64,000 nucleotides of DNA from Nitrososphaerales archaeon. GTDB taxonomy: Archaea; Thermoproteota; Nitrososphaeria; Nitrososphaerales; UBA213. Below the pieces are notes generated by a model. It was given only the letters and a program-made list of their open reading frames with translations, did no database searches and was not told the DNA's origin. The position numbers and the translations under genes are program-made. The stretch is taken from NCBI GenBank assembly GCA_965197925.1, contig CBDAOC010000020.1, positions 512,001 to 576,000 on the forward strand, written 5' to 3'. Below are positions 1,348 through 58,403 of this stretch, one piece after another. Numbering within the stretch: the first letter of the stretch is position 1; the number at the start of each line of letters is the position of its first letter.

Positions 1348-1943
1348 TTTTCAGTATAACTATTTCTATACCATCTTATGTCCTCGAACCTACTGAACTA
1401 AGACGACCATAGAAATAAGAACTGTTCAGAAATATCTGGAATAATTTGGCAAAAATTGGTATTTTTCTTATTTTTATTAATATAGCTAAACAGGACCATG
1501 TCGGGATTAGCAACAAGAGAAAATTAGTTCCTCATTATTAGACTATTTGAAATAGTTCAGAATCAGTTTTATGGACTAGAGTAGAATTACAAAAAGAGCA
1601 TTTATCCACATCCTTATCAGGGGATTAGGAAGGCACAATCCAGAGGCAATTGGGCAAAAATGAAGATAAATCCAGTGTTTTTGTTTCATGATTTATTTCT
1701 AAAATCACCTTTATTCTAATATTAAAGAATTTCTAATTCTGTAACAAAACTTTATGATATAGTATACATTTTTTGGCAGAGTCTTTAGCAAAGATTAGGC
1801 TAACACAAGTGTTGTAATATTCATCGAGGATCAATGGGTAATACATCCCTAGAGTTATTCGTATAGTAACAGGTCAGGATGATAGTTATTTGAAGCATGG
1901 GCATTATTCCATATAACAAAAATAACTTGATGCCTCTGATTGA

Positions 1944-2994
1944 TTAGCTTCCCAACATATACTTCAATGCCCTTAATGGTCTTCCTGTCAAGTAGTTGTA
2001 GTATACCATCAGCTGGTATAGCAATATAGAAATCAGAACGATGCTCCTAGCTTTATCGAACCCTCTAACTGGCAATGGATCTATGGTAAATACATCCTTC
2101 ATATGCTCTATCAATGGCTCAACGCTTATGCTCTTCCGAGAATATACATGCTGTCCATATTCAGAGTTATAGAACTGCAGCAATGCCAGTCTATTATCTG
2201 TAGTATGCTTGTACCTTTCCAATGGGAATACTGGATGCCCTCTATACCTGCTGAAATCACATAACTTGTGATCATCATATCCTTCATCTCCTACAACATA
2301 CCTTACCATTCCTGTAGGCAATGAAGATGTTATGCTTTCATACATCTTGTTATCAGTAATGTTAGCTGTTGTGAAATCAGCTGATAATGGAACTATCAAC
2401 GAACCTGTGCTACATGCTAGATGCATCTTGTATCCGAATACCCATCCCTTGGTTCTGCTGTAGCCCCATCGAGCATCTGTATCTATACCGGAGCGTGGCA
2501 CTTCATTCTTCTTCATGCTAGATTTGTGCCATACATGTCCCTTTGCCTTCAACAAGGAACTGTCAACGGATACTATGGCTGGGTCTACCAACCCATCTTT
2601 TATGAAGAGCATACCCATCCCAAGTTTGCCCTTTATCCAGGGCCTTATCCCGCAAGTCTACCAACCCATCTTTTATGAAGAGCATACCCATAACATCTAT
2701 CCTTGATCTTATGTCAATTGATGGCCTTGAACCTTCTGTCGAATGTTCTTCTGTCTGGCAACCTATCCAAACCACATACCCCATTACCTTCCTGTTGTAT
2801 GGCATGTCTATCGAAAAGTATTCATGCAAAGCATTGTTGCTTGGTATTCTTACCCATACTCTAACGATGAAGCATCTCACCATTACTGTAGGAGAATAGT
2901 AGAATGGTCTACCCCTTTTCCTATTAGGTTTTGACCAAGGAATCACGTCAATCAAAAATAATATACGAAGAAGTATGGAGTCTGAGCTAAACAT
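1944..2994 (-). pseudogene. Transposase split by a 73-bp insertion and by compensating indels
   Basis: ORFs 2563-2994 and 1944-2618; VDSS...DTDARWGYSRTKGWVFGYKMH...GDEGYD...VEPL DDE motifs. Confidence 0.88.
2583..2691. repeat. 36-bp direct repeat / 37-bp unique insert / 36-bp repeat inside transposase (copy A)
   Basis: GTCTACCAACCCATCTTTTATGAAGAGCATACCCAT at 2583-2618 and 2656-2691. Confidence 0.95.
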
Positions 2995-3282
2995 ATCAAC
3001 AATAAAAACTAGAACCTGATCTTATCGTTTCGACCGGCTTAATTATGCCCAAGCCTCAATTAGATATTTCCCTTTGCATATGACTGATTAGTTTGCCTAA
3101 TCTTCGTATTTCTACAGCAATTAGACTGTTGGTGTTCACTCCAACTTTCGCCAAATTATTTTTGTGCTATTAGAGATATACTGTCCAATGTTATCTCTAA
3201 TGTAAGCAAATAATAAATAATTGAGGCTTGGGCGTAATTTAGTTCGAAACGATAAGATCAGGTTCTAGTTTTTATTGTTGAT

Positions 3283-4333
3283 ATGTTTAGCTCAGACTCC
3301 ATACTTCTTCGTATATTATTTTTGATTGACGTGATTCCTTGGTCAAAACCTAATAGGAAAAGGGGTAGACCATTCTACTATTCTCCTACAGTAATGGTGA
3401 GATGCTTCATCGTTAGAGTATGGGTAAGAATACCAAGCAACAATGCTTTGCATGAATACTTTTCGATAGACATGCCATACAACAGGAAGGTAATGGGGTA
3501 TGTGGTTTGGATAGGTTGCCAGACAGAAGAACATTCGACAGAAGGTTCAAGGCCATCAATTGACATAAGATCAAGGATAGATGTTATGGGTATGCTCTTC
3601 ATAAAAGATGGGTTGGTAGACTTGCGGGATAAGGCCCTGGATAAAGGGCAAACTTGGGATGGGTATGCTCTTCATAAAAGATGGGTTGGTAGACCCAGCC
3701 ATAGTATCCGTTGACAGTTCCTTGTTGAAGGCAAAGGGACATGTATGGCACAAATCTAGCATGAAGAAGAATGAAGTGCCACGCTCCGGTATAGATACAG
3801 ATGCTCGATGGGGCTACAGCAGAACCAAGGGATGGGTATTCGGATACAAGATGCATCTAGCATGTAGCACAGGTTCATTGATAGTTCCATTATCAGCTGA
3901 TTTCACAACAGCTAACATTACTGATAACAAGATGTATGAAAGCATAACATCTTCATTGCCTACAGGAATGGTAAGGTATGTTGTAGGAGATGAAGGATAT
4001 GATGATCACAAGTTATGTGATTTCAGCAGGTATAGAGGGCATCCAGTATTCCCATTGGAAAGGTACAAGCATACTACAGATAATAGACTGGCATTGCTGC
4101 AGTTCTATAACTCTGAATATGGACAGCATGTATATTCTCGGAAGAGCATAAGCGTTGAGCCATTGATAGAGCATATGAAGGATGTATTTACCATAGATCC
4201 ATTGCCAGTTAGAGGGTTCGATAAAGCTAGGAGCATCGTTCTGATTTCTATATTGCTATACCAGCTGATGGTATACTACAACTACTTGACAGGAAGACCA
4301 TTAAGGGCATTGAAGTATATGTTGGGAAGCTAA
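3283..4333 (+). pseudogene. Transposase split by a 73-bp insertion
   Basis: ORFs 3283-3714 and 3659-4333, identical translations to copy A. Confidence 0.88.
3586..3694. repeat. 36-bp repeat / 37-bp insert / 36-bp repeat inside transposase (copy B)
   Basis: ATGGGTATGCTCTTCATAAAAGATGGGTTGGTAGAC at 3586-3621 and 3659-3694; insert 3622-3658. Confidence 0.95.
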
Positions 4334-4753
4334 TAGTAATAATTTCAAAATAATATTATAATTGAATTATGCCCAAGTCTCAGTTAATTAGTGGTTATGT
4401 TAATGGAGCCTTTGGATAATTGCGGCTAATCCTTTAAGGGTTCTGTCTACTTGGATGAGAATACTATATTCAGTTGAGTTATGAACACGTTTCTTGATAA
4501 GTGTATGATTTTGTGTTTTCAATGTTGTTCTGGTGCATATAACATCCAGACTGGTCGGGATTTAGTATAGAGAGCTGATATTCACGGTAATTATTTACAA
4601 TAACAATCGATTAACTGTCTTTGTGATATAGTTTCTGTGAAGCCCCAATATATACAATAATTTATCAATATATTTATTGAAGAAGGATTATTATTACTTA
4701 CAATACAATTATCAAAAATAAAACTGAGCAAGAATTTTGATGAAATTTATAGT

Positions 4754-20785: not shown

Positions 20786-21944
20786 GAGACTTGGGCATAA
20801 TTCAATTATAATATTATTTTGAAATTATTACTATTAGCTTCCCAACATATACTTCAATGCCCTTAATGGTCTTCCTGTCAAGTAGTTGTAGTAAACCATT
20901 ACCTGATACAACAATACTGATAACAACACTATACTCCTTACCTTATCAAATCCTCTAACTGGTAATGGTCTATATCAAATACATCCTTCATATGCTCTAT
21001 CAATGGCTCAACGCTTATGCTCTTCCGAGAATATACATGCTGTCCATATTCAGAGTTATAGAACTGCAGCAATGCCAGTCTATTATCTGTAGTATGCTTG
21101 TACCTTTCCAATGGGAATACTGGATGCCCTCTATACCTGCTGAAATCACATAACTTGTGATCATCATATCCTTCATCTCCTACAACATACATCACCATTC
21201 CTGTAGGCAATGAAGATGTGATGCTTTCATACATCATGTTATCAGTAATGTTAGCTGTTGTGAAATCAGCTGATAATGGAACTATCAACGAACCTGTGCT
21301 ACATGCTAGATGCAGTTTGTATCCGAATATCCATCCCTTGGTTCTGCTGTAGCCCCATCGAGCATCTGTATCTATACCAGAGCGTGGCACTTCATTCTTC
21401 TTCATGCTAGATTTGTGCCATACATGTCCCTTTGCTTTCAACAATGAACTGTCAACGGATATTATGGCTGGGTCTACCAACCCATCTTTTATGAAGAGCA
21501 TACCCATCCCAAGTTTGCCCTTTATCCAGGGCCTTATCCCGCAAGTCTACCAACCCATCTTTTATGAAGAGCATACCCATAACATCTATCCTTGATCTTA
21601 TGTCAATTGATACGGCCTTGAACCTTCTGTCGAATGTTCTTCTGTCTGGCAACCTATTAAGACCACATGCCTTCATTACCTTCCTGTTGTATGGCATGTC
21701 TATCAAAAAGTTTCATGCAAAGCATTGTTGCTTGGTATTCTTACCCATACTCTAACGATGAAGCATCTACCATAACTGTAGGAGAATAGTAGAATGGTCT
21801 ACCCCTTTTCCTATTAGGTTTTGACCAAGGAATCACGTCAATCAAAAATAATATACGAAGGAGTATCGAGTCTGAGCTAAACATATCAACAATGAAAAAT
21901 GGAACCTGATCTTATCGTTTCGAACTAAATTACGCCCAAGCCTC
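20786..21944 (-). mobile_element. IS982-like insertion sequence, copy C, diverged and multiply frameshifted
   Basis: TIRs GAGACTTGGGCATAATT / AATTACGCCCAAGCCTC; transposase fragments 20938-21507 and 21452-21706. Confidence 0.88.
21472..21580. repeat. 36-bp repeat / 37-bp insert / 36-bp repeat inside transposase (copy C)
   Basis: Repeats 21472-21507 and 21545-21580; same insert as copies A and B. Confidence 0.95.
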
Positions 21945-21980
21945 AAATAGATATGATTAATAAAACCACAAAAACGAAAT

Positions 21981-28685: not shown

Positions 28686-28875
28686 AGAGCATGTATTATG
28701 CTGTGATCAAAAAGTTGTACAGAATAAGTATACGATAAACACTTGACAGGCCGTTGCTAACAATCAAATACTGATTACAAAATCCTGACATCTATAGAAG
28801 AGGGATAGAAGATTATCTTTTTTTGATATTTTAACACATCTTGTGTAGTTAATACATCGAAATATTTCTCACTTA

Positions 28876-29931
28876 GAGCTTATCCGAAAATTAACATCAC
28901 GGCCTGATTGTTTATACCGAAACAGATCTAGATCTGTTCTCTCTAGCTAAATTTGTGAGAAAATCAAAGAAAAAGAGCATGCCGACCATATGGCATATAC
29001 CAGACGATCTATGGGAAGAGTTCGAACTAGTGCTGCCGCCAAGGAAACCAGCAAGAACAGTTGGAAGGCCAGCTGTGCCATTTAGAAAAGTGTTGAATGG
29101 AGTACTGTACGTATTAAGAACTGGATGCCAGTGGAAGAAGGTGCCGAAAGAATTTGGTTCTGGCTCAACTTGCCATGCAAGATTTCAGGAATGGATTGGG
29201 ATAGGAGTATTCAAGAAGGTATGGAAGAGGCTGCTGGAAATATATGATGAATTGAAGGGTATAGGATGGGACTGGCAATCCATGGATAGCGTACCGAAGG
29301 CCCCATTAGGGGGAAAACGACCGGAGCAAACCCAACGGATAGAGGCAAGCTAGGTACCAAACGTCACATGCTGGTTGATAGAAGAGGAGTACCTCTCTCA
29401 TCTGTAATTACTGAAGCAAACAAGCACGATATGAAATCAGCCTTTCCTACAATAGATAGCATTGTTGTTGATAGGCCCAAAGTTAAACAGAACATATGCA
29501 TGAATAGGATATGATTTCCCTGAGATAGAGTATGGAGTATGAAATATGGAGTTAGGAAGGGGATATGTGGATCACATTCGTCATAAGGGTGAAGTGTTGA
29601 AAAAGAATTTGTACAAAGCAAAGAGATGGGTTGTAGAAAGAACCGCATCTTGGCATAACAGGTTCAGAAAGTTATTGGTAAGGTTCGAGAAGAGAGAGGA
29701 AAATTATCAGGCGCTAGCAGAATTTGCTAACTGCCTAATAGTGTACAGAGCGATATATTGGTAGTGTCATAAACACGTTAATGCAACTGTTTCTAGTATC
29801 TATTATCTACAATACTAATAAAATCAATAGTAAGAAAACTAAACCTGACAGTTTGAACTAATATTCTTGCATTCTAAATGTTATCATTTCTACCAATCAT
29901 TAACTATCAGCTAGAATTTTAGGATAGGCTC
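28876..29931 (+). mobile_element. IS5-family (IS427/IS1031-like) insertion sequence, defective
   Basis: TIRs GAGCTTATCCGAAAATT / AATTTTAGGATAGGCTC; orfA YVLRTGCQW, orfB RWVVERT; DKGYD region disrupted. Confidence 0.9.
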
Positions 29932-29933
29932 TA

Positions 29934-30953
29934 AGTCATACACGTCTTGTCTACAAATATGTTCTAGAACAAGCGTATAAAAACAAAACTAAGCATTGGG
30001 ATCCCGCTGACACAAAACTTTCAGATGGAAAATCAGAATTGGATCACATAGAATGGAGCACGATTTCATTTCAAGAAATGCATGAAGGCCCTTTTGCGGC
30101 AAGAAATATAATTCCTGTGCCCATGGCTTGGACAGGTTTAGCTCCCAACTACCCAGATTATCCCTCTAGCTCATACTTTGCGGCAAATTGTGGCTTCGTG
30201 TTTGACATGCGTATGCAAGAAAGCCTATTGATTGAATTACAGAATAAAATAAATGACTTGCATAAAATTCATAGTCAAACTTGGACGCTACAATCGAATG
30301 AACCTGAATCTGATAGCCGAACATATTATATGACGGGGTTTTCGGCACAAAGTTTGGTTAAAACCGTTAAGGAGAAGAATCTTTATAATGTAAATATGGC
30401 ATGGGTAATTAGAACACTAGAAGCTGTTAATTATATTATAACAGGTAGATTCGAACAAGAAATAACTGTCACCGCATATCTTCCATACATTCCGCGATTG
30501 AACAGGTTTCCAACCATAAACCGAACTAATAAAAAATATGAAGTTAAAACTATGCGTGCCTCAGTATTCTTAGTAAATCTAGAGCATTTGGAAGGGGGAA
30601 TAGGATCTAATGATATTGTATTTGGAGATGAAGACTATATGACTAGAAACAGAATTTGTGATGTGCATCCCTATCTTTATTTGAAAGAAGAATGGACCGA
30701 GTGGATAAAAGCTGTACGCTTATCTAACTTCGACGCTTTTGTGAATAAACTGATGGATAATTCTGTTCCATATAGCGAACAACTTCGACATATGCAACCA
30801 CAAGTCTTGTTTGGCAATCTAAGCACTTCAATTGAAAAGAATCGTCTAGTTCTTACCGGCTTTAATCTTTATGTAGAAAAATATAATCCAAGACCAATTT
30901 CACAAAACACTGTATTATGTTTATTGTTTAACCCACAGGTTCATTCTGTATAA
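29934..30953 (+). pseudogene. Hypothetical protein, 5'-truncated by IS
   Basis: Frame of ORF 30039-30953 stays open back to the IS junction (SHTRLVYKYVLEQ...). Confidence 0.65.
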
Positions 30954-31097
30954 AATGCCTTTTTGTTATTCCTAAATTGATCTGTATACCATTATTATTC
31001 GACATTATGTCTTGAAGTATAAGGTGGCATTTATCCTTGTACAAATTAAATCCCAGAAAATGTATTGTTGGTATCACCAGAAAGGAAGAATGAGTAA

Positions 31098-32153
31098 GAG
31101 CCTATCCTAAAATTCTAGCTGATAGTTAATGATTGGTAGAAATGATAACATTTAGAATGCAAGAATATTAGTTCAAACTGTCAGGTTTAGTTTTCTTACT
31201 ATTGATTTTATTAGTATTGTAGATAATAGATACTAGAAACAGTTGCATTAACGTGTTTATGACACTACCAATATATCGCTCTGTACACTATTAGGCAGTT
31301 AGCAAATTCTGCTAGCGCCTGATAATTTTCCTCTCTCTTCTCGAACCTTACCAATAACTTTCTGAACCTGTTATGCCAAGATGCGGTTCTTTCTACAACC
31401 CATCTCTTTGCTTTGTACAAATTCTTTTTCAACACTTCACCCTTATGACGAATGTGATCCACATATCCCCTTCCTAACTCCATATTTCATACTCCATACT
31501 CTATCTCAGGGAAATCATATCCTATTCATGCATATGTTCTGTTTAACTTTGGGCCTATCAACAACAATGCTATCTATTGTAGGAAAGGCTGATTTCATAT
31601 CGTGCTTGTTTGCTTCAGTAATTACAGATGAGAGAGGTACTCCTCTTCTATCAACCAGCATGTGACGTTTGGTACCTAGCTTGCCTCTATCCGTTGGGTT
31701 TGCTCCGGTCGTTTTCCCCCTAATGGGGCCTTCGGTACGCTATCCATGGATTGCCAGTCCCATCCTATACCCTTCAATTCATCATATATTTCCAGCAGCC
31801 TCTTCCATACCTTCTTGAATACTCCTATCCCAATCCATTCCTGAAATCTTGCATGGCAAGTTGAGCCAGAACCAAATTCTTTCGGCACCTTCTTCCACTG
31901 GCATCCAGTTCTTAATACGTACAGTACTCCATTCAACACTTTTCTAAATGGCACAGCTGGCCTTCCAACTGTTCTTGCTGGTTTCCTTGGCGGCAGCACT
32001 AGTTCGAACTCTTCCCATAGATCGTCTGGTATATGCCATATGGTCGGCATGCTCTTTTTCTTTGATTTTCTCACAAATTTAGCTAGAGAGAACAGATCTA
32101 GATCTGTTTCGGTATAAACAATCAGGCCGTGATGTTAATTTTCGGATAAGCTC
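31098..32153 (-). mobile_element. IS5-family insertion sequence, inverted copy of 28876-29931
   Basis: Same TIRs and identical ORF translations; flanked by TAA on both sides. Confidence 0.9.
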
Positions 32154-32515
32154 TAAGTGATTAATAGACTTGTCGGTTATTTGAACTTCAGGAAAAAATA
32201 AATCATGCCTAATCTGACTGGTACTAATATCCTGATTGGAAGGATACAGAGCATTATATGTTGCGATCATTATGAGCAAAATTCTTGGAATTACTTGAAC
32301 TATTTAAGATAGTCATCCTAATGATTTTATTGTCTAAAAGTGATATTGTTGAATAAAGCAAAAGTCTAATTGATTGGTGCTCTAGATTGAGAGTGTATGA
32401 TCCTAGGATAATTTTATTAGTATTTTTGTCAACATGTATTCAATTTGATATAATGGAGAAATGATTGTTAATTTGTAAATTCTTCAGTTTTATGATCATT
32501 TCTGCTGAATCACAA

Positions 32516-55782: not shown

Positions 55783-56041
55783 ATTTATCATTTAACATAT
55801 ACTGGAGTTTTATTCATTGGTGTAAGAGTAGGAGGCGATTAAAGGGTTCAGGAGAAAATTTCTAGCGCGTACGTGTTCTCACTTTCATCTCTAGCTTTTA
55901 CCTATTCTAATAGATTAATACTGTTAATATATTTCATTCATGATTAAAAATTTAGCCAAGTCTACTTTTTAATCGGAATTATATAAACAAAACTTCTTTC
56001 ACTAAACTATTATTGGTTATAGAAGATTCTGATAATTAGAT

Positions 56042-57133
56042 GAGGCATGGGCATTATTCCATATAACAAAAATAACTTGATGCCTCTGATTGATTAACTT
56101 CCCAACATGTGCTTCAATGCCCTTAATGGTCTTCCTGTCAAGTAGTTATAGTATACCATCAGCTGGTATAGCAATATAGAAATCAGAACGATGCTCCTAG
56201 CTTTATCAAATCCTCTAACTGGCAATGGATCTATGGTAAATACATCCTTCATATGCTCTATCAATGGTTCAACGCTTATGCTTCTTTGCGAATATACATG
56301 CTGCCCATATTCAGAGTTATAGAACTGCAGCAATGCCAGTCTATTATCTGTAGTATGCTTGTACCTTTCCAATGGGAATACTGGATGCCCTCTATACCTG
56401 CTGAAATCACATAACTTGTGATCATCATATCCTTCATCTCCTACAACATACCTTACCATTCCTGTAGGCAATGAAGATGTTATGCTTTCATACATCTTGT
56501 TATCAGTAATGTTAGCTGTTGTGAAATCAGCTGACAATGGAACTATCAACGAACCTGTGCTAGATGCTAGATGCATCTTGTATCCGAATATCCATCCCTT
56601 GGTTCTGCTGTAGCCCCATCGAGCATCTGTATCTATACCGGAGCGTGGCACTTCATTCTTCTTCATGCTAGATTTGTGCCATACATGTCCCTTTGCTTTC
56701 AACAAGGAACTATCAACGGATACTATGGCTGGGTCTACCAACCCATCTTTTATGAAGAGCATACCCATAGCACCTATCCTTGATCTTATGTCAATTGATA
56801 TGGCCTTGAACCTTCTATCAAACGTCCTTCTGTCTGGTAATCTATCAAGACCACATGCCTTCATTACCTTCCTGTTGTATGGCATGTCTATCGAATAGTA
56901 TTCATGCAAAGCATTGTTGCCTGGTATTCTTACCCATACTCTAACGATGAAGCATCTACCATAACTGTAGGAGAATAGTAGAATGGTCTACCCCTTTTCC
57001 TATTAGGTTTTGACCAAGGAATCACGTCAATCAAAAATAATATACGAAGGAGTATCGAGTCTGAGCTAAACATATCAACAATAAAAACTAGAACCTGATC
57101 TTATCGTTTCGAACTAAATTACGCCCAAGCCTC
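56042..57133 (-). mobile_element. IS982-like insertion sequence, copy D, lacking the 73-bp insert, with 8-bp TSD
   Basis: TIRs GAGGCATGGGC / GCCCAAGCCTC; AATTAGAT at 56034-56041 and 57134-57141; transposase ORF 56094-56909 with one upstream frameshift near 56958. Confidence 0.93.
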
Positions 57134-58403
57134 AATTAGATAAGAAGTTCTAAAATGCCAGCTACTGACCCGGTTTCATCTAGTATGAGATAGGATCGAT
57201 GTACCAATGTATGTTGCCATCTAGCCTTTTCTTACCATTAAAACAAGATCTTTCACCCCCACATCCATTCTTATCAATGAAGCCGTTCTATTCTTGCACA
57301 CTCCAATCAGTATACAGGTATCCGAAACAAGCAGGTCTTCATCTATAAAGTATTTTACAGAAATTGTTAGACTAAATTCTATCACTTCTATTGAGGTCAC
57401 CATCTCTTGAAGCAAATATTCTTTTTCAAAATATCCAAGGGACATTCTTACTCGAATGATATCTAAGATTTTAGGATCAATATCCTCACCGTGAGCTACA
57501 GTAAAAACACTAACTGAATTTCCTTTAGTTCAATCTTATTTATCAAATATAATACTAACGATCGTCAGGCATATCATAACGGAATTTGACACCTCAAACC
57601 CCTGTTCAATCAATTCTCCTATTGTAATAATGTCCCAATTGAAACCATTAAATCTCCATTATTTTTCCTATTGTTTGAAAGAGAGCCAGATTCTGCCGAA
57701 CAAGACTTGCCGATTCTTATAGTTGTTTCTTTCATTGGTGGATAGTATGTCTGACCGCCTGCAATTCTTGCTACTGCCTCTATGATCACTCGATAGTTTC
57801 AGTTTATCAACTTTGTTTCTATCAGTGTTTAACAATTGTGTTATTAATTTATCCTTGATTTGTTCGAGGTAAATATTCTTTCATGTCAAATATAACTGTG
57901 ATTGTTTTCAATCCCTGGAACAACCTTCTTAATTCATATTGTAGAACATTCCCCATTAGGCGTATTATCAAAGTAAAACATCTTAATTTATGAACCTCTA
58001 TCAAGCAGCATATTGTTTTACTCTTCAGGGTAAACTCAAATATACCACGCTAATCCAGGTATTTTACATAAAGGGTTGTAACCACCGATATCTGTTTGTG
58101 CGACTAACTATGCAAGCGGAATATTTCCTAACTTGTCGGTGCTCATGAATATTACATCATCACGATCCAATGCATGGCCCTGGAATCCATATTAGAATTC
58201 GGTCCTGCCAATTATACAGTAAGATTATTTCCCAATTTTATTTTATCTTCATCCTTTTTTAGATGAACGTTATAGTCAATTACAAAATAACATAGCAATT
58301 AGGATAAAGATATCAGTGCAACACCTAGGACGTACCCAAAGAGTTTCTCAGTAATATGATTAGTTTGTAATAATTGATGTTTTATGAAACGCTAAACAAA
58401 AAG

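What the first reader, a model, noticed from the sequence alone, without database searches (positions are those of the whole stretch)
3586..3694. CRISPR-like repeat-spacer-repeat created inside a transposase gene: candidate off-target Cas1-Cas2 spacer integration
Seen: a 36-bp piece of transposase coding sequence (ATGGGTATGCTCTTCATAAAAGATGGGTTGGTAGAC) is exactly duplicated around a 37-bp, more GC-rich insert (TTGCGGGATAAGGCCCTGGATAAAGGGCAAACTTGGG). The same unit occurs at 2583-2691 and 21472-21580. Copy D has the empty site, a single 36-mer at 56733-56768, so the pre-insertion state is visible. The net +73 bp breaks the frame. Established: Cas1-Cas2 integrates a spacer of roughly 30-40 bp and duplicates a repeat-length target, whereas IS TSDs are far shorter and simple slippage adds no foreign DNA. 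Inference: this is a natural ectopic spacer-acquisition event that disrupted the transposase and left a one-spacer proto-array on a mobile element, a possible route to de novo arrays.
Basis: partly seen in the sequence, partly recalled or inferred. Interest (0 to 1): 0.88.

Follow-up and report, generated by a model that had tools for sequence, protein, structure and literature searches.

The report
Stray CRISPR spacer inside a transposase
A 37-base piece of the organism's own chromosome has been pasted into a jumping-gene's transposase with a 36-base duplication of the target, the footprint expected when the CRISPR spacer-integrating enzyme hits the wrong place, and the same genome carries at least three more such scars.

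Summary
A 36-bp stretch of an IS4/IS5-like transposase gene is duplicated around a 37-bp insert in three IS copies in the window and one more on contig C17. Of 80 near-full IS copies, 76 have the empty site, as does a related IS in another genus.

The best explanation is an off-array integration by a CRISPR Cas1-Cas2-type integrase.
- The 37-mer has one other exact copy in the genome, with clean ends: a donor site at C13:68501-68537.
- A genome-wide scan found three more independent units of the same geometry (duplication 36-37 bp, insert 36-37 bp, period 72-73).
- The genome has orphan CRISPR arrays with a 37-nt repeat and period 70-73.
- A relative has a nearly identical 37-nt repeat (period 72-73) beside a complete type I cas locus.

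Caveats:
- The cas genes of that 37-nt system are not in this assembly.
- The only CRISPR-type cas1-cas2 present belongs to a 30-nt-repeat system and is decaying.
- The targets do not resemble the native repeat.
- No PAM could be fixed.

The unit is younger than the divergence of the IS copies and seems to have spread among them by gene conversion. Off-target integration is already known from experiments, so this is a new natural member of a known kind.

The parts
3586..3621 (+). First copy of the duplicated 36-bp target (IS copy B)
   Evidence: Exact 36-mer.
3622..3658 (+). 37-bp insert (spacer-like). It is identical to the genome's own C13:68501-68537 read on the minus strand.
3659..3694 (+). 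Second copy of the 36-bp target. Its first ATG starts the 224-aa C-terminal ORF.
3218..4334 (+). IS copy B (IS4/IS5-like, DDE_Tnp_1), carrying the unit. It is 100% identical to copy A over 1091 nt, in inverted orientation.
3283..3714 (+). N-terminal transposase ORF, 143 aa. It is thrown out of frame in the insert and has no Pfam match.
3659..4333 (+). C-terminal transposase ORF, 224 aa, holding the DDE_Tnp_1 domain (E 4.9e-21).
1880..3066 (-). IS copy A, carrying the same unit at 2583-2691.
2583..2691 (-). 36-37-36 unit in copy A.
20833..21956 (-). IS copy C, carrying the same unit at 21472-21580. Its backbone is 92-95% identical to A and B.
21472..21580 (-). 36-37-36 unit in copy C.
56031..57155 (-). 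IS copy D with the empty site: a single 36-mer at 56733-56768.

Best explanation
The unit is the scar of an off-array (ectopic) spacer integration by a CRISPR Cas1-Cas2-type integrase.

Mechanism.
1. A spacer-sized piece of about 36-37 nt was cut from the cell's own chromosome. The donor is still present at C13:68501-68537.
2. It was joined by two staggered strand transfers, 36 bp apart, into the coding sequence of an IS4/IS5-like transposase.
3. Gap repair duplicated the 36 bp.

The geometry matches the 37-nt-repeat CRISPR system whose orphan arrays are in this genome and whose complete cas locus is seen in a relative. I take that system's integrase, now lost from or unassembled in this genome, as the most likely agent (about 0.55 of the 0.78 confidence given for this explanation).

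Consequences. The event frameshifted an otherwise intact transposase. The unit then spread to other, already diverged IS copies by gene conversion. It is most likely a functionless scar rather than a working mini-array.

Shown: the structure, the empty site, the donor, the recurrence of the geometry, and the native arrays.

Inferred: the enzyme, the order of the steps, and the gene conversion.
For: (1) Exact 36/37/36 structure with unambiguous ends.

(2) The empty site is the ancestral state. 76 of 80 near-full IS copies lack the 73 bp. In a 73-77%-identical IS of another genus (G007), the two matched pieces overlap by 35 bases on one copy of the target, so that IS also has an empty site.

(3) The 37-mer has exactly one other copy in the 2.9-Mb genome. 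Identity ends at both ends of the 37-mer, and the flanks there are not IS sequence.

(4) The geometry recurs. A scan for local exact direct repeats found three more independent units:
- C20:730231 has a 37-bp duplication of another site in the same IS and a 36-bp insert. That insert is also exact at C19:469639.
- C15:78685 is 36/37.
- C20:935899 is 36/36.
All have period 72-73 and 100% identical repeat pairs.

(5) Native arrays have a 37-nt repeat and periods of 70, 72 and 73. Relative G041 has a 33/37-identical 37-nt repeat. Its periods are 73 (35), 72 (34) and 74 (18) of 114 intervals. That array lies beside Cas7, Cas5, Cas3, Cas1, Cas2 and Cas4.

(6) Insert lengths of 36-37 are also the modal spacer lengths (253 of 337) in relatives' arrays beside the orthologue of the resident cas1-cas2.

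(7) For Pyrococcus furiosus Cas1-Cas2, off-target sites keep the 30-31-bp spacing of the native repeat (PMC6698737, passages). A duplication of repeat length is therefore the expected signature.

(8) Ordinary transposition in this genome looks different. A MITE inside another copy of this IS has an 8-bp target duplication. The family 1 casposase of Nitrosopumilus koreensis makes 13 bp (PMC8464041, abstract and passages).

(9) All four inserts have C at one 5' end. That is what is expected if the last base (C) of the 37-nt repeat comes in with the spacer (36 duplicated + C + 35-36). My arithmetic puts this at about 0.014 by chance, and the test is post hoc.
Against: (a) No cas1, cas2, cas4, cas5 or cas7 orthologous to the relative's 37-nt-repeat locus is in the assembly (tblastn). 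The one CRISPR-type cas1-cas2 present (C20:38914-40212) has orthologues that sit beside 30-nt-repeat arrays in 5 of 5 relatives.

(b) That resident module is decaying.
- cas1 is fused to cas2 by a 13-nt insertion not seen in the 3 relatives aligned.
- Homology to the relative starts inside cas4, so the leader and array are gone.

(c) The duplicated targets show no significant similarity to the native 37-nt or 30-nt repeats. Empirical p for the four units is 0.13-0.94, and for E1 by global alignment 0.11-0.25.

(d) No consistent PAM. With the C-first orientation the two donors give TTC and TGC. In another orientation both have TATG 5' of the protospacer, about 0.02 by chance. These two readings exclude each other.

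(e) The duplication is 36 bp, not 37.

(f) The four carrying IS copies are not one clade, which needs an extra step such as gene conversion.

(g) Both known donors lie within 257 and 630 bp of copies of this IS. This could hint at an IS-linked process rather than a Cas one.
Confidence: 0.78

Rival explanations
1. The chemistry is the same, but the agent is the resident cas4-cas1-cas2 module at C20:38914-40643. This module was orphaned from its leader and 30-nt-repeat array, and its cas1 is fused to cas2. Without its cognate target, or with an altered architecture, it integrates at stray sites with a spacing equal to its spacer length (36-37) instead of 30. This is a sub-variant of the best explanation, not an alternative to Cas-type integration.
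For: - It is the only CRISPR-type Cas1-Cas2 in the assembly.
- It is full-length against the Pfam Cas1 and Cas2 models and scores 391 bits against TIGR03641, above the cut-off of 304.
- Its orthologues' arrays have spacers of 36-37 in 253 of 337 cases, the same as the inserts.
- Its leader and array are missing, and a MITE copy abuts the break.
- In all four units the duplication length is about equal to the insert length.
Against: - In P. furiosus, off-target spacing equals the native repeat length, 30-31 bp (PMC6698737). A 30-nt-repeat integrase should therefore give about 30-bp duplications.
- A separate class of candidate units with 30-31-bp duplications exists in this genome and fits this module better.
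- The 13-nt insertion replaces the Cas1 C-terminus and may inactivate it.
Confidence: 0.2
2. A replication or repair error, such as template switching or microhomology-mediated break-induced replication. This would have copied 37 nt from the C13 locus, which lies next to an IS fragment, and then re-copied 36 nt of the IS.
For: - The only other copy of the 37-mer lies 257 bp from a fragment of the same IS that includes the 36-mer.
- Only 2.5% of non-IS genome positions lie that close to a copy.
Against: - The 37-mer at C13 is inverted relative to the IS fragment, and its immediate flanks are not IS sequence.
- At the junctions there is no more than a non-adjacent 2-nt match.
- Four independent units share nearly identical duplication and insert lengths, which such errors do not predict.
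- Two of the units are not in IS sequence at all.
Confidence: 0.07
3. The 73 bp is an old part of the IS that most copies lost by recombination between the 36-bp direct repeats.
For: The carrying copies are scattered on the IS tree, and each has empty copies as its nearest relatives. Precise deletion between 36-bp repeats is mechanistically easy.
Against: - The 109-bp unit is 100% identical in all four copies, and the 37-mer is identical to the C13 donor, while the backbones differ by 3-9%.
- The related IS in another genus has the empty site.
- The 37-mer exists outside any IS context.
Confidence: 0.02
4. Integration of a short DNA piece by a casposase. An intact solo Cas1 lies at C1:31612-32805, and the other Cas1-like fragments in the genome are closer to it than to the fusion.
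For: - An intact 398-aa solo Cas1 and four further Cas1-like fragments are present; tblastn places them nearer the solo Cas1 than the fusion.
- The N. koreensis casposase integrates oligonucleotides from 7 nt upwards (PMC8464041, abstract).
Against: That casposase makes a 13-bp target duplication set by a ruler. Here the duplication is 36-37 bp in four of four units.
Confidence: 0.02

Closest known systems
Off-target ('neo-CRISPR') spacer integration by E. coli Cas1-Cas2 (Nivala, Shipman and Church 2018, Nat Microbiol). The paper is not held; I know it only through citing passages.
   Same: A spacer-sized DNA is integrated outside any array, creating a new repeat-spacer-repeat from ordinary genomic sequence.
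   Different: That work used over-produced integrase and supplied oligonucleotides. One citing preprint says natural evidence was only circumstantial, in two other species. Here the events are natural, at least four in one archaeal genome. The empty site and two donor sites are preserved. No integrase with a matching ruler is in the assembly.
In vitro off-target integration by Pyrococcus furiosus Cas1-Cas2 (PMC6698737; passages read).
   Same: Paired strand transfers occur on opposite strands at a spacing equal to the native repeat length, even on DNA without a CRISPR.
   Different: The P. furiosus off-target sites resemble the repeat. Here the four targets show no significant resemblance to the native repeats.
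Ectopic spacer acquisition inside Streptococcus thermophilus arrays (PMC7999890; search listing and start of abstract only).
   Same: The spacer is integrated away from the leader-proximal repeat.
   Different: Those events still use genuine CRISPR repeats inside an array. Here the target is a protein-coding IS sequence.
Casposon integration (family 1 casposase of Ca. Nitrosopumilus koreensis, PMC8464041; abstract and passages).
   Same: A Cas1-family integrase makes staggered strand transfers with a ruler, and can insert short DNA.
   Different: The target duplication there is 13 bp, against 36-37 bp here.

Membership tests
Product of Cas1-Cas2 spacer integration at a non-CRISPR site (neo-CRISPR unit) | Direct duplication of the target, of native repeat length, on both sides of the insert | tested here: met
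   The duplication is 36 bp exact. The native repeat is 37 nt. A relative's repeat is 37 nt. The difference is 1 bp.
Product of Cas1-Cas2 spacer integration at a non-CRISPR site (neo-CRISPR unit) | Insert of native spacer length | tested here: met
   The insert is 37 bp. Four of the five distinct native 37-nt-array spacers are 33-36 nt, the fifth 22. Periods in relative G041 are 72-74 in 87 of 114 intervals, giving spacers of 35-37. In the 30-nt-repeat relatives, 253 of 337 spacers are 36-37.
Product of Cas1-Cas2 spacer integration at a non-CRISPR site (neo-CRISPR unit) | Insert copied from a protospacer elsewhere, with clean ends | tested here: met
   C13:68501-68537 is 37/37 identical, and identity stops at both ends. 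A second unit's insert is exact at C19:469639.
Product of Cas1-Cas2 spacer integration at a non-CRISPR site (neo-CRISPR unit) | An integrase with the matching ruler encoded in the genome | tested here: inconclusive
   A Cas1-Cas2 (fused) plus Cas4 is present, but it is cognate to 30-nt repeats. The cas genes of the 37-nt system are absent from the assembly and present in a relative. The C1 array touches a contig edge on its leader side.
Product of Cas1-Cas2 spacer integration at a non-CRISPR site (neo-CRISPR unit) | Protospacer-adjacent motif consistent between donors | tested here: inconclusive
   There are only two donors. They give TTC and TGC in one orientation, or a shared TATG in another. 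The native PAM is unknown.
Product of Cas1-Cas2 spacer integration at a non-CRISPR site (neo-CRISPR unit) | Target resembles the leader-repeat junction or repeat motifs | tested here: not met
   Similarity to the native repeats is no better than for random genomic 36-mers. p is 0.13-0.94, and 0.11-0.25 by global alignment. The leader was not compared.
Product of Cas1-Cas2 spacer integration at a non-CRISPR site (neo-CRISPR unit) | Catalysis by Cas1-Cas2 | not testable with these tools
   This needs enzymology or genetics.
Functional CRISPR array | Several repeats of a Cas6-recognisable sequence, a leader, and processing into crRNA | tested here: not met
   There are two repeats and one spacer, and the repeat is transposase coding sequence unlike the native repeats. 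No PF01881 (Cas6) or PF01905 (Cas7/DevR) match exists in the genome. Processing was not testable.
Transposon or casposon target-site duplication | Short duplication typical of the element, flanking an element with terminal repeats | tested here: not met
   A MITE in this genome has an 8-bp duplication. The casposase duplication is 13 bp. Here the duplication is 36 bp around 37 bp that I did not check for terminal repeats.

The most novel reading that the evidence does not exclude
This archaeal genome records a repeated conflict between a CRISPR integrase and an expanding IS family.

The integrase wrote self-derived spacers into non-CRISPR DNA many times.
- There are four clean units with a 36-37-bp ruler.
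- There are several candidates with a 30-31-bp ruler matching the second CRISPR system.
- One unit is nested inside another.

The events are linked to the IS.
- The donors lie next to IS copies. The chance that both lie within 630 bp of a copy is about 0.004 (fraction, my arithmetic).
- Two of the four targets lie inside the IS, which makes up 3.9% of the genome.

The unit hit, or was copied into, the few transposase genes that are otherwise intact. Three of the 4 carrying copies would be intact without it, against 4 of 76 empty copies. That gives p of about 0.002, or about 0.014 if the identical pair A and B counts once (my arithmetic). The unit can in principle be removed precisely through its 36-bp repeats, so it may act as a reversible off-switch for active copies.

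In turn, mobile elements orphaned the cas module: a MITE sits at the cas4 break.
Probability: 0.25. Interest if true: 0.8.

Novelty: new member of a known kind. Interest (0 to 1): 0.62.

Why it matters
Off-target spacer integration has been shown mainly with over-produced E. coli integrase and in vitro. Whether it happens in nature, how often, and with what consequences is largely open. One citing preprint calls the natural evidence circumstantial.

One genome here preserves the product, the empty site, two donor sites, several independent events with a fixed ruler, and the native arrays that set the ruler. This gives a natural data set on three questions:
- the integrase's intrinsic ruler;
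- self-derived spacers;
- how new repeat-spacer-repeat units arise and then spread on mobile DNA.

It also shows a concrete cost of keeping an adaptation module: genes are broken by it.

Tried and rejected
- **Rfam on the donor region** (L007, E up to 1): no match. RNA folding of the GC-rich stretch beside the donor gave z-scores of -0.59 and -0.33, so there is no sign of a structured RNA.
- **Native 37-nt repeat in other collections:** 0 hits in genome contigs, 0 in metagenome contigs, and 0 of 5 relatives at up to 3 mismatches.
- **The 37-mer elsewhere:** 0 hits in viral contigs and 0 in metagenome contigs.
- **Inserts of the C15 and C20:935899 units in viral contigs:** 0 hits each.
- **PAM from a relative's array:** a relative's 142-repeat array searched against GenBank phages gave no match, so no PAM could be derived.
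- **Empty site for the C20:935899 unit in other genomes:** the region was found in 0 of 40 relatives and 0 of 5 further genomes, so this was not testable.
- **Similarity of targets to native repeats:** not significant.
- **Earlier notes of this scan:** none fit.
- **Nivala et al. 2018:** could not be read.
- **Variability of the last repeat base** in the relative's 115 repeats, as a sign that it comes from the PAM: it is invariant, which is uninformative.
- **IS plus mini-array moving as one unit** (C18:164620 and C19:7563): rejected. Both lie in one 10.5-kb duplicated segment.
- **Run X2:** it shows no cover over the insert and only the joined (empty) form. Contigs can drop rare variants, so this does not show that the unit is absent there.
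Full report
**1. Observation**

Window 3586-3694 reads a 36-mer, a 37-mer and the same 36-mer. With up to 3 mismatches allowed, the 36-mer has 7 matches in the window, all exact. The 37-mer has 3, also exact. None was expected by chance. The units lie at 2583-2691 (-), 3586-3694 (+) and 21472-21580 (-). Copy D has one 36-mer at 56733-56768. The ends cannot be shifted, because the flanking bases differ from the ends of the insert.

The insert splits the transposase into a 143-aa ORF and a 224-aa ORF that starts at the ATG of the second repeat. The 224-aa part holds DDE_Tnp_1 (E 4.9e-21). NCBIfam gives only sub-threshold IS1182, IS982 and IS5 matches.

**2. The element**

The window is G000:C20:512001-576000, in a 2.9-Mb genome of 20 contigs with 34-40% GC per contig. 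The IS is about 1.11 kb. It gives 141 BLAST loci, which make up 3.9% of the genome.
- Of 80 near-full copies aligned, 4 carry the 73 extra bases: the three in the window and C17:50015.
- A 73-77%-identical IS in another genus (G007) has the empty site. Its two matched pieces overlap by 35 bases on a single copy of the target.
- The IS was found in 3 of 8 other genomes of the family searched, and in 0 of 32 from other families of the order.

**3. Age and spread**

The four carrying copies are not one clade. Their common ancestor on a midpoint-rooted FastTree holds 55 of 80 tips. They are 91-97% identical to each other, flanks included; copies A and B are 100% identical over 1091 nt.

The tract identical in all four spans only alignment columns 507-655. 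The flanks of A/B and of C are 99.5-100% identical to empty copies; those of C17 are 97.8-99.1% identical. The 109-bp unit has no difference among the four copies or from the donor, while the backbones differ by 3-9%. The unit is therefore younger than the copies and moved between them, most simply by gene conversion. This step is inferred.

Taking out one repeat plus the insert restores a 325-326-aa ORF in 3 of the 4 carrying copies. Only 4 of the 76 empty copies have an ORF of 324-327 aa.

**4. Donor**

The 37-mer has one further exact copy, at C13:68501-68537 on the minus strand. Identity stops at both ends. BLAST extends it to 39/40 only through a non-adjacent 2-base match.

The site lies between the end of a pentapeptide-repeat ORF fragment and a roughly 450-bp GC-rich stretch (55-59% GC) without long ORFs. 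That stretch has no Rfam match and no unusual folding energy.

The donor is 257 bp from a 113-bp fragment of the same IS. That fragment has the empty form, and the 37-mer is inverted relative to it.

**5. The geometry recurs**

A scan for local exact direct repeats (20 bp or more, period 50-100) found, besides the native arrays and the four copies of this unit, three more units:

| Locus | Duplication (bp) | Insert (bp) | Notes |
|---|---|---|---|
| C20:730231 | 37 | 36 | Another site of the same IS; the insert is also exact at C19:469639, an intergenic site 630 bp past an IS copy |
| C15:78685 | 36 | 37 | No other genomic match |
| C20:935899 | 36 | 36 | No other genomic match |

All repeat pairs are 100% identical.
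- A scan allowing mismatches added none of this geometry.
- In a wider scan (period up to 400), every non-tandem pair with repeat 28-40 and spacer 33-42 was one of three things. It was a native array, one of these units, or one of a second class with 31-bp repeats: C1:49193, C17:116185 and C19:180281. The single exception was a 40/41 pair at C19:322044.
- The C15 unit is nested inside a 30-bp duplication (C15:78655 and 78799). That duplication would have enclosed 41 bp before the inner event.
- The C20:935899 unit spans the overlap of two genes. The upstream gene can end in repeat 1 and the downstream gene can start in repeat 2 (and the sequence).

**6. CRISPR-Cas in this genome**

Arrays:
- The 37-nt-repeat arrays lie at C1:1-305 (five repeats, at the contig edge; periods 70, 72, 59) and at C18:164620 and C19:7563 (three repeats each; periods 72, 73).
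- The C18 and C19 arrays lie in one 10.5-kb duplicated segment, so they count as one array. No cas genes lie beside them.
- A remnant array of three 30-nt repeats is at C20:873557.

cas genes:
- Pfam Cas1 matches 6 places.
- Only one is CRISPR-type. It is a 432-aa ORF with full Cas1 and Cas2 domains, scoring 391 bits against TIGR03641 (type I-B Cas1; cut-off 304), with Cas4 next to it.
- The others are an intact 398-aa solo Cas1 and fragments closer to it than to the fusion.
- Cas2 occurs only in the fusion.
- There is one intact Cas4 plus one broken copy.
- There is no match to PF01881 or PF01905.

**7. Relatives**

Five genomes whose records are titled Nitrosopumilus sp. MAGs encode orthologues of the fusion at 67-93% identity.
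- In the closest (L034), cas1 (337 aa) and cas2 (108 aa) are separate genes.
- Ours differs from the three relatives aligned by a 13-nt insertion that shifts cas1 into the cas2 frame.
- In 5 of 5 relatives an array of 30-nt repeats lies beside the genes. Spacers are 36 nt in 170, 37 in 83 and 35 in 51 of 337.
- In ours, homology starts inside cas4, so the leader and array are gone. A copy of a roughly 140-bp MITE abuts that break.

One of these relatives (G041) has a second, complete type I locus: Cas7/Csh2-like, Cas5b-like, Cas3, Cas1 (320 aa), Cas2 and Cas4.
- Beside it is a 115-repeat array of a 37-nt repeat that is 33/37 identical to the C1 repeat of our genome, with periods of 73 (35), 72 (34) and 74 (18).
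- Our assembly has no orthologue of that locus's Cas1, Cas2, Cas4, Cas5 or Cas7.

**8. Reading**

Three things match the 37-nt-repeat system: a duplication of 36-37 bp, an insert of 36-37 bp and a period of 72-73.

For P. furiosus Cas1-Cas2, off-target integration keeps the native 30-31-bp spacing (PMC6698737). A 36-37-bp duplication therefore points to an integrase with a 36-37-bp ruler.

The 1-bp offset (36 duplicated, 37 inserted) would be explained if the last base of the repeat, C, enters with the spacer. I recall this for the last repeat base in E. coli; it was not checked here. In line with it, all four inserts have C at one 5' end, about 0.014 by chance on my arithmetic (post hoc).

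The second class, with 30-31-bp duplications, would fit the resident 30-nt system. These remain unverified leads.

**9. Evidence against**

- The matching integrase is not in the assembly.
- The targets do not resemble the repeats.
- No PAM can be fixed from two donors.
- Both donors lie close to IS copies. The fraction of non-IS genome within 630 bp of a copy is 0.061, so both doing so is about 0.004 by chance. Two of the four targets are in the IS.

I read the last point as a link between IS-induced DNA breaks or intermediates and both prespacer supply and target choice. That is an inference, and it could instead point to an unknown IS-linked process.

**10. Rivals**

- Template switching lacks junction microhomology and does not predict fixed lengths.
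- An old IS feature lost from most copies is contradicted by the identity of the unit across diverged backbones and by the empty site in another genus.
- Casposase integration gives 13-bp duplications.
- Ordinary transposition in this genome gives 8 bp.

**11. Reads**

Logan contigs of runs X1 and X8, from two studies, cover the inside of the insert at depths of about 21 and 16. Run X2 and the RNA run X18 give contigs that skip exactly 3586-3658. All four runs are held as contigs, so they show presence only. One DNA run may be the source sample.

**12. Known or new**

Off-target integration that creates new repeat-spacer-repeat units was reported for E. coli by Nivala et al. 2018. That paper is not held and is known to me only from citing passages. 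One of those passages says the natural evidence was circumstantial, in two other species.

Two full-text searches for off-target or neo-CRISPR integration listed no paper whose title or abstract start describes a natural multi-event case. The listed papers were not read in full, and subscription journals are not searched.

I file this as a new natural member of a known kind.

Noticed in passing
G000:C20:38914-40643 (outside the window; locus L009 8915-10644): cas1 and cas2 are fused into one 432-aa ORF by a 13-nt insertion that looks like a tandem duplication. The three relatives aligned lack it. cas4 loses its first ~50 nt of homology to the relative, and the leader and array are gone.
   Followed up: partly
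G000:C20:40615-40753 and C20:731061-731208: A MITE of about 140 bp with about 10 copies on C20. One copy abuts the break at the 5' end of cas4. Another sits in the IS copy that also carries the second ectopic unit, flanked by an 8-bp duplication (CATTGAAG).
   Followed up: partly
G000:C17:116185, C19:180281, C15:78655/78799, C14:8013, C1:49193: A second class of two-copy units with 30-31-bp repeats and 34-42-bp inserts. They may be off-array integrations by the 30-nt-repeat system. The C1:49193 repeat itself looks like a CRISPR repeat (GTTTCAATCC...CTAAAC). At C19:180281, 27 of the insert's 34 bases match C1:51317-51343.
   Followed up: partly
G000:C17:166920-166955: One IS copy has an imperfect 36-bp tandem duplication with no insert between the copies. 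The length is the same as the ectopic target duplications. It may be a repaired pair of nicks, or it may be unrelated.
   Followed up: no
G000:C13:68538-69000 (locus L007 5540-6000): A GC-rich stretch (55-59%, against 38% for the genome) without long ORFs lies beside the donor site. It is unique in the genome, has no Rfam match and shows no unusual folding energy. Its origin is unknown.
   Followed up: partly
IS copies genome-wide (80 near-full copies): Only 4 of the 76 empty copies have a 324-327-aa transposase ORF. Three of the 4 copies carrying the unit would be intact without it.
   Followed up: partly
window 1943-4334: IS copies A and B form a perfect 1091-nt inverted pair with 210 nt between the identical arms. 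Both carry the unit, so this looks like a recent inverted duplication.
   Followed up: no
window 28863-32166: Two 100% identical inverted copies of another IS (its N-terminal ORF resembles the DUF4096 IS4/5 transposases seen elsewhere in this genome; not scanned) flank 1150 bp containing one 304-aa ORF. The arrangement resembles a composite transposon.
   Followed up: no
G000:C18:157010-167514 and C19:1-10457: A 10.5-kb segment is present twice at 99.7-100% identity, including an IS copy and the three-repeat 37-nt array. It is either a segmental duplication or assembly redundancy (estimated contamination is 5.4%).
   Followed up: partly
G000:C1:31612-32805; fragments at C17:38228, C18:209338, C20:1036342, C20:205100: An intact 398-aa solo Cas1 (casposase-like) and four fragments of similar genes. 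Two of the fragments lie within ~220-530 bp of copies of the IS studied here.
   Followed up: partly
G000:C20:861133-862416: One IS copy holds a 172-bp run of a 9-bp unit (AGGATATGA) inside the transposase gene.
   Followed up: no
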